64,000 bases of DNA from Escherichia coli 042 (GTDB lineage: Bacteria > Pseudomonadota > Gammaproteobacteria > Enterobacterales > Enterobacteriaceae): the NCBI RefSeq assembly GCF_000027125.1, contig NC_017626.1. One strand, 5' to 3'. Position 1 is the stretch's first letter; each line of letters begins with the position of its first letter. Position numbers: made by a program. Shown piece by piece: positions 54,001 through 57,000 of the stretch.

Positions 54001-57000
54001 AATTTATACAGGAACACCGCCGCGACAATAATCCACGCTATTGGCCATAATCCATAAATAAAGCCATAGCCTGCAGCAGCAAATGCCATATCAATCGGCA
54101 TTTTAAAGGCGAATATTGCAATCAGGATAGATAATATAAGGGTTATTGCTCCAGCGACATGTCCTTTCAGACGTAATACCGCGAGTGCAACGAAGAAGAA
54201 TATTATCGGGATCAGGGCGACCAGAGCGGATAGCCCCAGTCCTCCCATCGGCATATACATTTGGGTCCAGGTAACCATATTGTTCAGTCTCTTATTATCT
54301 TTATATGCTTGATATACTTAAGGTTGTAATAAGCAAAAGAGGACTGAACTGTAAAATATAGGCGTTATACTTTACAGCAACAGTACGCTGCTAACGCAAT
54401 TGCTACCTCTGGCATAACAAGTATATCGGGTAAGGGTTTCTGTTCCGCACACGCAGGCGCAGAATATCGTTAAGATGTCCATATTGTTGTTTTAGGCCCG
54501 CTAGTAATGCGCTACGGGTATTTAATATTGTTAAACCCTGATAATCGCTCCGGTTATTTCCGGGATAAATGTACTACCGCAGTTACTATCATAGCCCCGA
54601 CAATAAAACTTGCCGGGGCTTTTTTGACGCTATTAATGACTTTCTTTTTCGCGTAAACGCCAGGCGTGTAATAACGGTTCGGTATAGCCGTTTGGCTGTT
54701 TCACGCCGAGGAAGATTAAATCGCTGGCAGCTTTAAAAGCACACGAGTTAGCGAAATTCCCCGCCATCGGACGATAAGCCGGATCGCCAGCGTTTTGCTG
54801 ATCAACCACTTTCGCCATATTCTCCAGCGACGCCTGCACCTGTTCTTTGGTCAGAATACCGTGACGTAACCAGTTGGCGATATGCTGGCTGGAGATACGC
54901 AGCGTTGCGCGGTCTTCCATCAGCGCCACGTTGTGAATATCCGGCACTTTTGAACAACCAATCCCCTGCTCCACCCAACGCACCACGTACCCCAGAATCC
55001 CCTGCACGTTGTTATCCAGCTCTTGTTGGATCTCTTCCACCGACCAGTTAGCGTTTTCAGCAACCGGAATAGTCAGCAGATCATCCAGCAGCGGTTCAAA
55101 TTCAGCATTGAACTCGCTCTGGGCAATGTTGGCTTGCACGCTCTGTACGTTGGTTTGGTGGTAGTGCAGCGCATGGAGCGTAGCAGCGGTTGGTGACGGA
55201 ACCCAGGCTGTGTTTGCCCCGGCACGCAGTTGGTCGCCCTTCTGGCTGTACATGTCTGCCATCAGGTCCGGCATTGCCCACATGCCTTTACCAATTTGCG
55301 CTTTACCGCGCAGCCCACAGAACAGGCCGGAAAGCACATTATTACGCTCGTAGGCTTTGATCCACGGCGTCGATTTCATCTGGTTTTTACGCAGCATCGG
55401 GCCAGCTTCCATCACCGAATGCATTTCATCGCCGGTACGGTCGAGGAAACCGGTATTGATGAACGCCACGCGGTTGCGCGCCTGAGCGATACAGCTACGC
55501 AAGTTCAGCGAGGTTCGGCGTTCTTCATCCATAATGCCCATTTTCAGGGTATTCGGTGCCATACCGAGCATTGTCTCAACGCGGGTAAACAGTTTGTTGG
55601 CGAACGCCACTTCCTGCGGACCGTGCATTTTCGGTTTCACAATATAGACGCTGCCAGTGCGCGAGTTTTTCTGCACTTTTAAATCATAGAGGGCAATCGC
55701 GCCAGTCATGACGCCATCAAGAATGCCTTCCGGGATTTCATTGCCTTCGCTGTCCCAAATCACAGGAATGGTCATCAAATGACCCACGTTGCGGATAAAC
55801 AGCAGCGAACGCCCGTGCAGAGAAATTTCAGAGCCGTCGGCAGCGGTGTACTGACGATCGTCATTCAGTTTACGCACGATTTGCCGACCGTTTTTCTCCA
55901 TTTTCTCTTGCAGAGTCCCCTGCATCAGGCCCAGCAGGTTGCGGTACAGCAGGATTTTATCTTCCGCATCAACCGCCGCGACCGAATCTTCGCAGTCAAG
56001 AATGGTACTGATGGCCGCTTCGACGATAACATCGTTGATATGCGCCGGATCGTCTTTGCCAATCCGCCCGTTGGCATCAATTTGCAGTTCAATATGCAGG
56101 CCGTTATTTTTCAGCAAAATGCAGGTCGGCGCAGCGGCATCGCCACGGTAACCGATAAACTGCTCCAGGGTACGTAACGTGGTTTCTTTACCATTTTTCA
56201 ACTGGATGCGTAATTGTTTGTCAACCACCTTAAACGCCACCACATCCTGATAGCTGCCGTTTTCCAGCGGTAGAGATTCATCGAGGAAACGCCGAACCCA
56301 GGCGATAACCTGCTCACCGCGCTGCGGATCGTAGCCGCTGACCATCGCCCCTTCCTGCGGGATGATGTCGCTGCCGTATAACGCATCGTACAGTGAGCCC
56401 CAGCGAGCGTTCGCCGCGTTCAGCGCGTAGCGGGCGTTCATTGCCGGAACCACCAGCTGTGGCCCCGCCTGGCTGGTGATTTCGCTATCAATGCCCGTGG
56501 TTTCCACCGTCACGTGCTCCGGTTGCTGCACCAGGTAGCCCAGTTCACGCAGGAAAGATTTATAGGCCGCTTTATCATTTACCGGCCCCGGATTGCTGCG
56601 ATGCCACTCATCAAGCGCCGCCTGAATGCGATCGCGCTCTGCCAGCAACTGACGATTTTCTGGTGCCAGATCGTGAACGATCTCATCAACATTGCGCCAG
56701 AACGCCGCAGCGTCCAACCCTGTTCCCGGCAAAACTTCTTCATCCACAAAACGTTTAAAATTGGCGTCAATGCGTAAACGGCCCTGGGTTATGGTTTCAC
56801 TCATTATTTATCTCCTCGTTTTCGCTTATTTCGCCAACACCGCTGCTGCCGCTTTCGCGACCTGCGCATCCTGTGCTCCGGTTAAACCAGAAACTCCCAC
56901 GGTACCAATAATTTGCCCATCCACAACAACCGGTACGCCGCCTTCCAGCGACGTCAGTAACGGCGCAGTCACGAACGCGGTACGTCCGTTGTTCACCATC

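What the first reader, a model, noticed from the sequence alone, without database searches (positions are those of the whole stretch)
54590..54632. Hairpin with T-tract on the non-transcribed strand between glcB and glcA
AGCCCCG / loop / CGGGGCT followed by TTTTTT lies just beyond the glcB stop but in the + orientation. On the glc transcript it forms a hairpin without a 3' U-tract, so it may act as an mRNA stability or processing element or as a terminator for antisense transcription rather than a glcB terminator.
Basis: seen in the sequence. Interest (0 to 1): 0.15.

Follow-up and report, generated by a model that had tools for sequence, protein, structure and literature searches.

The report
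Stem-loop ending glcB mRNA, facing backwards
This is an ordinary, conserved RNA hairpin just after the E. coli malate synthase gene glcB: published 3'-end mapping shows that glcB transcripts end at its foot, and read from the other strand it looks like the terminator of the little-studied antisense RNA C0719.

Summary
The hairpin is real. Its arms are at 54593-54599 and 54614-54620, followed by a T-run at 54620-25 on the + strand. It lies 12 nt past the glcB stop, in the 354-nt glcB-glcA spacer of E. coli, and the hairpin sequence is identical to MG1655.

It folds on both strands: -14.7 kcal/mol on the + strand and -20.1 on the glc mRNA strand. It is single copy.

It is conserved after glcB in E. 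albertii, two unnamed enterobacterial lineages and Raoultella/Klebsiella. Raoultella has one extra C-G pair, and one pair varies as G-C, G.U or U.G. The T-run is always on the strand antisense to glc.

Term-seq (Adams et al. 2021) has a minus-strand 3' end at MG1655 3121590, which is window 54589. That is 4-5 nt past the stem. It appears in LB OD 2.0 only and is classed as the primary glcB 3' end. No + strand end is listed in the spacer.

Rfam C0719 (54357-54578, + strand) stops 15 nt before the hairpin.

Best reading: the hairpin defines and protects the 3' end of glcDEFGB mRNA, acting as an exonuclease barrier or a weak terminator. On the other strand it is probably the intrinsic terminator of C0719. 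This is ordinary and already catalogued, so interest is low.

The parts
54593..54620 (.). GC-rich inverted repeat (arms 54593-54599 and 54614-54620). It forms a 7-bp stem plus an inner 3 bp on + strand RNA, and a continuous 11-bp stem with one G.U pair and a 6-nt loop on minus strand (glc mRNA) RNA.
   Evidence: Sequence. Folds. Conserved across genera.
54620..54625 (+). T6 run directly 3' of the stem on the + strand, which is an A6 run 5' of the stem on the glc mRNA. Its length is polymorphic, T6 or T7, among E. coli genomes.
   Evidence: Tail score -5.05. The polarity is kept in all nine sequences compared.
54589..54589 (-). Published Term-seq 3' end of glcB transcripts (MG1655 3121590, minus strand; LB OD600 2.0; average 47,630 reads). 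It lies 4-5 nt 3' of the stem.
   Evidence: Adams et al. 2021, PMC7815308, supplementary file 1. Coordinate mapping, window + 3067001, comes.
54357..54578 (+). C0719 candidate sRNA (Rfam RF00117). It is antisense to the glcB-glcA spacer and ends 15 nt upstream of the hairpin.
   Evidence: cmscan 297 bits, E 8.5e-79. Low expression that rises in transition and stationary phase. No longer annotated in RefSeq MG1655.
54310..54318 (+). TGATATACT, a possible extended -10 promoter element for the antisense (C0719) unit, about 300 nt upstream of the T-run. Inferred only.
   Evidence: Hexamer scan. The pattern TGnTATnnT is kept in an E. coli variant (TGATATGAT) and in Raoultella (TGGTATGCT). No TSS data could be obtained.
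54279..54632 (-). The 354-nt untranslated glcB-glcA spacer of the glc mRNA. It is more structured than shuffled sequence.
   Evidence: A 401-nt fold that runs 19-28 nt into each flanking gene gives z -2.95. C/G ratio profile.
54633..56804 (-). glcB (malate synthase G). The stop codon is 12 nt upstream of the stem on the mRNA.
52596..54278 (-). glcA (glycolate/lactate permease), the next gene on the same strand.

Best explanation
The hairpin is a conserved stem-loop that works on both strands, sitting at the glcB|glcA junction of the glc operon.

On the glc mRNA (minus strand) it forms an 11-bp hairpin 12 nt after the glcB stop and defines the stable 3' end of glcDEFGB transcripts. This end is shown by published data.

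That strand has no U-tract. The end is therefore most likely made by 3'-to-5' exonucleases (PNPase, RNase II) trimming back to the hairpin. The trimming would follow either Rho-dependent termination or RNase E cleavage somewhere in the 354-nt untranslated spacer or in glcA. Some weak intrinsic termination may contribute. This step is inferred. The result would be that the enzyme-coding part of the mRNA outlasts or outnumbers the permease part.

Read on the + strand, the same palindrome followed by T6 is a canonical intrinsic terminator. It would stop antisense transcription across the spacer, the C0719 unit, before it enters glcB. This is inferred from anatomy, from the position of C0719 and from conserved polarity.
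For: A Term-seq minus-strand 3' end lies 4-5 nt past the stem. It appears only in LB OD 2.0, and no glcA 3' end is listed in any condition.

The hairpin is stable on both strands and persists in long contexts.

The glc-strand tail is U-poor (score -2.83) and the + strand tail is strong (-5.05).

Dar & Sorek 2018 showed that steady-state 3' ends of Rho-dependent E. coli transcripts sit immediately downstream of stable stem-loops without U-tracts, produced by PNPase/RNase II trimming.

C0719 is on the + strand and ends 15 nt before the hairpin.

The hairpin is conserved after glcB in E. albertii, two lineages with GlcB 86-88% identical, and Raoultella/Klebsiella (80%). On the mRNA strand 95% of cells are paired, against 28-61% when partners are slid. 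One pair varies as G-C, G.U or U.G, and Raoultella has one extra C-G pair.

The T-tail is strong on the antisense strand in all nine sequences. This includes Raoultella, where the rest of the spacer is mostly unalignable and C0719 is not detected.

In one E. coli genome an IS5-family insertion and deletion removed glcA and the spacer but stopped just short of the hairpin.
Against: No + strand 3' end at the T-run is listed in any of three Term-seq conditions.

C0719 is expressed at very low level and has been dropped from the RefSeq MG1655 annotation.

No TSS data for the + strand could be obtained.

No Rho region is listed nearby. However, the BCM data are from LB OD 0.5, and no glc-operon 3' end is listed in the LB 0.4 Term-seq sheet.

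The spacer shows no clear C-rich, G-poor rut-like stretch; C/G ranges from 0.6 to 1.75.

Dar & Sorek's protective hairpins typically lack an upstream A-tract, and this one has A6.

One E. coli genome of 4541 carries a 12-nt deletion of the 3' arm and T-run, so the element is dispensable for viability.
Confidence: 0.6

Rival explanations
1. The element is selected only as the intrinsic terminator of the antisense C0719 unit, or of any antisense transcription heading into glcB. The 3' end on the glc strand is then a passive by-product, because any stable hairpin stalls exonucleases, and it has no consequence for glc expression.
For: The + strand has canonical terminator anatomy: a GC stem followed by T6, tail score -5.05. 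T-run polarity is conserved in all lineages, whereas the glc strand never has a U-tract. C0719 abuts the hairpin.
Against: No + strand 3' end was detected, and C0719 is barely expressed. The inner stem pairs are kept only on the mRNA strand through wobble pairs: G.U in E. coli, U.G in L091/L097, and two G.U in Raoultella sp. L095. These are A.C mismatches on the antisense strand, and the mRNA-strand hairpin is the more stable one in 6 of 9 sequences. Raoultella keeps the hairpin without a detectable C0719.
Confidence: 0.2
2. It is a true partial terminator (attenuator) for the glc operon. RNA polymerase transcribing glcDEFGB releases at the hairpin despite the poor U-tract. Release may be helped by head-on collision with polymerases coming from the antisense unit. 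Only read-through transcripts would then express glcA.
For: The minus-strand 3' end is close to the stem and no glcA 3' end is listed. The hairpin is very stable, -20 kcal/mol with 11 bp. The tail has 4 U in 9 nt and scores -2.83, near the lower limit for predicted terminators. Collision-assisted termination at stem-loops between convergent units has been shown in vitro (abstract of 10.1101/2022.10.23.513370). Dar & Sorek discuss inefficient intrinsic terminators backed up by Rho.
Against: The U-tract is poor in every lineage. The literature treats the operon as glcDEFGBA, with glcA co-regulated. The end lies 4-5 nt after the stem rather than the usual 7-9 nt (from my knowledge of intrinsic terminators). 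Steady-state data cannot show where polymerase was released.
Confidence: 0.17
3. It is a chance palindrome or a copy of a repeated extragenic element (REP/BIME-like) with no specific role.
For: Short GC-rich palindromes are common in E. coli intergenic DNA. One natural strain lacks half of it.
Against: It is single copy per genome. No shuffle folds as well. It is conserved, with an added base pair, across genera whose flanking spacer has diverged. A mapped RNA 3' end lies at its foot.
Confidence: 0.03

Closest known systems
Protective 3' stem-loops at steady-state ends of Rho-dependent or processed E. coli transcripts (Dar & Sorek 2018, NAR)
   Same: A stable GC-rich stem-loop lies immediately upstream of a precise steady-state 3' end. 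There is no U-rich tail on that strand. It sits downstream of a stop codon and ahead of a long untranslated stretch.
   Different: It has an A6 run upstream, which that class typically lacks. Dependence on Rho and on the exonucleases is untested here. It lies inside an operon, before glcA, rather than at the operon end.
Canonical intrinsic (Rho-independent) terminator, read on the + strand
   Same: A GC-rich stem is directly followed by T6-T7. It lies 15 nt downstream of an annotated + strand RNA, C0719.
   Different: The loop is long (14 nt, or a 1x1 internal loop plus 3 bp). No + strand 3' end has been recorded. The upstream transcript is weak and of doubtful standing.
Bidirectional terminators and programmed polymerase collisions between convergent units (Ju et al. 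2019, from my knowledge; Wang et al. 2022 preprint)
   Same: One stem-loop sits between two convergent transcription units, glcB and C0719, with an RNA end at the hairpin.
   Different: Only one flank is T-rich, so the A-tract/U-tract pair is not symmetric. An end has been mapped on one strand only.
Intercistronic stabiliser hairpins that set unequal expression within operons (for example the REP hairpin after malE in malEFG, or the puf operon hairpins; from my knowledge)
   Same: The hairpin lies between an upstream, more abundant cistron and a downstream transporter cistron, and the upstream segment ends at the hairpin.
   Different: It is not a REP element, being single copy. Differential stability of glcB versus glcA mRNA has not been measured.
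Rfam RF00117 C0719 RNA
   Same: It is directly adjacent, on the same strand as the T-run, and co-occurs in E. coli, E. albertii and two related lineages.
   Different: The hairpin lies outside the 222-nt model. The model boundaries come from the array-based C0719 annotation (from my knowledge of Tjaden 2002). The hairpin is kept in Raoultella/Klebsiella, where the model finds nothing.

Membership tests
Intrinsic terminator on the + strand (for C0719 or antisense RNA) | GC-rich stem-loop | tested here: met
   A 7-bp stem with 6 G-C pairs, -14.7 kcal/mol.
Intrinsic terminator on the + strand (for C0719 or antisense RNA) | U-rich tract immediately 3' of the stem | tested here: met
   T6, or T7 in many strains. 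Tail score -5.05, and -4.6 to -5.6 in all nine sequences compared.
Intrinsic terminator on the + strand (for C0719 or antisense RNA) | A transcript on that strand that reaches it | tested here: inconclusive
   Rfam C0719 ends 15 nt upstream. Its expression is very low. It is no longer in the RefSeq annotation. No TSS data were obtainable, and there is only a candidate extended -10 at 54310-54318.
Intrinsic terminator on the + strand (for C0719 or antisense RNA) | RNA 3' end mapped in the U-tract in vivo | tested here: not met
   No + strand end at MG1655 31216xx in LB 0.4, LB 2.0 or M63 Term-seq. The transcript may be too scarce to detect.
Intrinsic terminator on the glc (minus) strand | Stable GC-rich stem-loop after the stop codon | tested here: met
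   An 11-bp stem, -20.1 kcal/mol, 12 nt after the glcB stop.
Intrinsic terminator on the glc (minus) strand | U-rich tract 3' of the stem | tested here: not met
   The tail is UAUGAUAGU, score -2.83. It is weak in all lineages, -2.5 to -3.3.
Intrinsic terminator on the glc (minus) strand | RNA 3' end mapped just after the stem | tested here: met
   Term-seq end at window 54589.
Protective 3' stem-loop of Rho-terminated or processed transcripts | Precise steady-state 3' end directly downstream of a stable stem-loop with no U-tract | tested here: met
Protective 3' stem-loop of Rho-terminated or processed transcripts | Read-through or longer 3' tails when Rho is inhibited or pnp/rnb are deleted | not testable with these tools
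   The only BCM data available are from LB OD 0.5 and list nothing near the site. The Dar & Sorek supplementary tables are not held.
Protective 3' stem-loop of Rho-terminated or processed transcripts | C-rich, G-poor (rut-like) RNA downstream | tested here: inconclusive
   C/G in 80-nt windows of the spacer ranges from 0.6 to 1.75, with no marked bubble.
Bidirectional terminator | A-tract upstream and U-tract downstream, so both strands read hairpin plus U-tract | tested here: not met
   Only the + strand has the U-tract.
REP/BIME repeated extragenic palindromes | Many copies per genome sharing a consensus | tested here: not met
   Median of one place per genome in about 4540 E. coli genomes.
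Rfam C0719 (RF00117) | Falls within the covariance-model match | tested here: not met
   The match is 54357-54578. The hairpin starts at 54593.

The most novel reading that the evidence does not exclude
The conserved 'wrong-way' terminator at an intra-operon junction could be a programmed convergent-transcription device. An antisense promoter in the spacer, the C0719 unit, rises on entry to stationary phase. It would fire toward glcB and be stopped at the hairpin. Head-on encounters there, together with C0719 pairing to the long glcA leader, would set how much glc transcription and translation continues into the permease gene glcA. Permease expression would thus be uncoupled from the glycolate-oxidising enzymes.
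Probability: 0.08. Interest if true: 0.45.

Novelty: already known. Interest (0 to 1): 0.12.

Why it matters
It matters little beyond annotation.

It shows that the glc 'operon' glcDEFGBA has a major internal RNA 3' end between glcB and glcA. This bears on the relative expression of enzymes and permease, and on metabolic-engineering constructs that use this region.

It suggests that the Rfam/EcoCyc boundaries of C0719 are about 47 nt too short at the 3' end, if C0719 is a real transcript.

It gives one more example of a single palindrome serving as a 3'-end hairpin for one strand and as a terminator for the other.

Tried and rejected
Terminator scan: the built-in scan found nothing because its loop limit is 8 nt. 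I replaced it with my own scan and tail scores.

Repeated element (REP/BIME): rejected, because the sequence is single copy.

It returned only E. coli plus Pseudomonadales and Burkholderiales at 70-75% identity, with no useful comparators. Relatives were then found through the protein search and exact-protein look-ups.

Within-E. coli variation has little power. There is a T6/T7 polymorphism and a loop A/T change. The only stem variant, Z0117 G->A, which is G.U on the mRNA strand, is a singleton.

Other 3'-end or TSS datasets could not be used:
- Dar & Sorek 2018, PMC9023263 and PMC12259150 have no supplements held.
- The TERMITe supplements have no glcB entry.
- The Cappable-seq GTF is cut before this part of the genome.
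- Ju 2019, Thomason 2015, Nunez 2001, Tjaden 2002 and Hershberg 2003 are not held.

Promoters: no consensus sigma-70 promoter (at least 9 of 12) was found in the spacer on either strand. Only 5-of-6 -10 hexamers were found.

Rho loading: no rut-like C>G region is evident.

Small ORFs crossing the hairpin on the + strand (54507..54656 and 54569..54736) were considered and set aside. They run antisense into glcB and nothing supports them.

Full report
**Observation.** The window is E. coli. The 354-nt interval 54279-54632 between glcA (52596..54278, minus strand) and glcB (54633..56804, minus strand) aligns to MG1655 3121280-3121633 with three SNPs and no indels. Window coordinate + 3067001 therefore gives the MG1655 coordinate. 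AGCCCCG (54593-54599) and CGGGGCT (54614-54620) flank a 14-nt loop, and TTTTTT follows at 54620-54625 on the + strand. The glcB stop codon lies 7 nt beyond the T-run.

In a 56-nt context the + strand folds at -15.2 kcal/mol (z -3.5) and the minus strand at -21.6 kcal/mol (z -4.7). No shuffle of 200 did as well on either strand. The bare hairpin is -14.7 kcal/mol on the + strand, as 7 bp, a 1x1 internal loop and 3 bp. It is -20.1 kcal/mol on the minus strand, as 11 continuous bp with one G.U pair. A TransTermHP-style tail score is -5.05 for the + strand and -2.83 for the glc strand. The hairpin survives in MFE and centroid folds of 172-401-nt contexts on both strands. The description, the coordinates and the 'no U-tract on the glc transcript' statement are all correct.

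**Not a repeat, and conserved.** The spacer and the hairpin are single copy. They occur in about 4541-4543 of 5426 complete E. coli genomes, and the same 4543 genomes match the spacer query and the query that adds the glcB 3' end. Over the 47 nt around the hairpin, 2676 genomes are identical. Another 1854 differ at one or two positions, namely T6 versus T7 and a loop A/T change. Only 11 differ more.

Two natural variants are informative. In strain PEC408 an IS5-family insertion and deletion removed glcA and the spacer but stopped just short of the hairpin. Strain AST217 has a clean 12-nt deletion of the 3' arm plus T-run.

Outside E. coli, GlcB relatives located by protein search led to five groups of loci:
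- E. albertii;
- a near-E. coli contig of unknown source (L094), whose glcB call is truncated to 660 aa and whose hairpin differs from the window only in the loop and the A-run;
- a lineage of unknown name with GlcB 88% identical (L091, L097);
- Raoultella;
- Klebsiella (GlcB 80%).

All have glcDEFGB followed by a 330-400-nt spacer and then glcA. In every one a GC-rich hairpin follows the glcB stop.

On the mRNA strand 95% of pair cells are standard pairs, against 28-61% when partners are slid by 1-3 columns. One pair occurs as G-C, G.U and U.G. Raoultella has one more C in the 5' arm and one more G in the 3' arm, which is an added base pair. The Raoultella spacer is otherwise largely unalignable, so the hairpin has been kept selectively.

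**Which strand?** Two lines of comparative evidence point in different directions, and I read this as both strands using the element.

(a) The run of A/T is always on the same side. The tail score is strong on the antisense strand in all nine sequences (-4.6 to -5.6) and weak on the glc strand in all nine (-2.5 to -3.3). This favours a selected terminator for antisense transcription.

(b) The inner stem pairs are often wobble pairs that exist only in the glc mRNA: G.U in E. coli, U.G in L091/L097, and two G.U in Raoultella sp. L095. On the antisense RNA these are A.C mismatches. The mRNA-strand hairpin is the more stable one in six of nine sequences and about equal in two. It is less stable in one polymorphic E. 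albertii sequence.

**Direct evidence.** Supplementary file 1 of Adams et al. 2021 (PMC7815308) lists a Term-seq 3' end at 3121590 on the minus strand. The sequence is ...AAAAAAGCCCCGGCAAGUUUUAUUGUCGGGGCUAUGA-3', with an average of 47,630 reads. It is classed as 'primary' for glcB and 'antisense' to C0719. It lies in the LB OD600 2.0 sheet only. 'Primary' is a positional label, meaning within 50 bp downstream of a gene.

This end corresponds to window 54589, which is 4-5 nt past the stem. No glcA 3' end and no + strand end in the spacer appear in any of the three conditions. The files were stored uncut. The Rho (bicyclomycin) map of that paper is from LB OD 0.5 and lists nothing near the site, so it is uninformative here.

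**The antisense partner.** Rfam RF00117 (C0719) matches 54357-54578 on the + strand at 297 bits. It therefore ends 15 nt before the hairpin. A sRNA gene without a terminator, followed at once by a hairpin plus T6, suggests that the annotated 3' boundary is short and that the hairpin is its terminator.

C0719's standing is weak:
- It is absent from the current RefSeq MG1655 annotation.
- In Rau et al. 2015 its expression was very low, rising 3.5- to 7-fold in transition and stationary phase.
- Overexpression gave no biofilm or motility phenotype.
- A transposon insertion at the site lowered group II intron retrohoming, unexplained.
- It has been lost in some E. coli and Shigella lineages.

The model also hits E. 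albertii, L094 and L091/L097, but not Raoultella or Klebsiella. A candidate extended -10, TGATATACT, lies at 54310-54318 on the + strand. The pattern TGnTATnnT is kept in an E. coli variant and in Raoultella. No TSS dataset could be consulted.

**Mechanism.** What is shown: glcB transcripts end at the foot of this hairpin in stationary phase. What is inferred: how that end arises. Dar & Sorek 2018 showed that E. coli transcripts lacking intrinsic terminators end, at steady state, immediately after stable stem-loops without U-tracts. Rho terminates downstream, and PNPase and RNase II trim back to the stem-loop. Here the hairpin is followed by 354 nt of untranslated RNA, which gives room for Rho loading or RNase E cleavage. 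The literature treats glcA as the last gene of glcDEFGBA. The most economical reading is therefore that polymerase mostly reads through, and that the upstream glcDEFGB segment is stabilised at the hairpin.

A weak real terminator, possibly helped by convergent polymerases, cannot be excluded from steady-state ends. The spacer has no obvious rut-like composition. On the + strand the element has all the sequence features of an intrinsic terminator but no mapped end.

**Comparison and novelty.** This is an ordinary kind of element: a 3' stem-loop that is also a terminator for the opposite strand. It lies in the best-studied bacterial genome. Its RNA end is already in a public table, and its antisense neighbour is already in Rfam. 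What is added here:
- the link between those two records;
- the suggestion that C0719's 3' boundary should extend to about 54625;
- the observation that the hairpin and its 'backwards' T-run are conserved as far as Raoultella and Klebsiella.

Interest is low.

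Noticed in passing
window 54279-54632 (minus strand); L092 5179-5576: Short blocks of the glcB-glcA spacer are conserved between E. coli and Raoultella although the rest is unalignable. On the mRNA strand they are ATGGACATCTTAA, TCTGCGC..GTGTGC.GAA, CTCTTAC, and the last ~40 nt before the glcA start. The spacer RNA is also more structured than shuffled sequence (z -2.95). This could be a regulatory leader for glcA.
   Followed up: partly
window 54310-54318 (+): TGATATACT resembles an extended -10 element pointing toward glcB, about 300 nt upstream of the T-run. The pattern TGnTATnnT is kept in an E. coli variant (TGATATGAT) and in Raoultella (TGGTATGCT). No TSS data were available to test it.
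   Followed up: partly
L089 2500-2545 (E. coli AST217, NZ_AP043630.1): A natural 12-nt deletion removes exactly the 3' arm and T-run of the hairpin (CGGGGCTTTTTT). It occurs in 1 of about 4541 genomes and is a ready-made mutant for testing the element.
   Followed up: yes
L002 2874-4047 (E. coli PEC408, NZ_CM168008.1): An IS5-family (ISKpn26-like) element, next to type II Zorya genes, replaces glcA and almost the whole spacer. The sequence match to the window resumes at window 54586, just before the hairpin.
   Followed up: partly
L092 5179-5230; L095 2979-3040: Raoultella and Klebsiella carry a second hairpin (GGCGCCATAGATGGCGCC-like) between the glcB stop and the conserved hairpin. Raoultella sp. 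BIGb0138 has a duplicated A-run (AAUAAAAAAUAAAAA).
   Followed up: no
L090 5526-5789 (E. albertii CP117620.1): In this E. albertii genome glcA is called only as an 87-aa fragment, followed by sslE. It is probably a deletion or pseudogene. Another E. albertii contig (L098) has a long glcA.
   Followed up: no
glcB, window 54633-56804: About 880 of 5426 complete E. coli genomes have no match to the glcB 3' end or the spacer at all. Outside Escherichia the closest GlcB proteins found are 86-88% (unnamed), then 80% (Raoultella/Klebsiella), then about 69% (Pseudomonas). The glc locus therefore has a patchy distribution in Enterobacteriaceae.
   Followed up: partly
window 54357-54578 (+): A mariner insertion at 'C0719' reduced group II intron retrohoming and top-strand DNA synthesis in extracts (Yao et al. 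2013, PMC3636086). This is unexplained and could equally be a polar or glcA-related effect.
   Followed up: no
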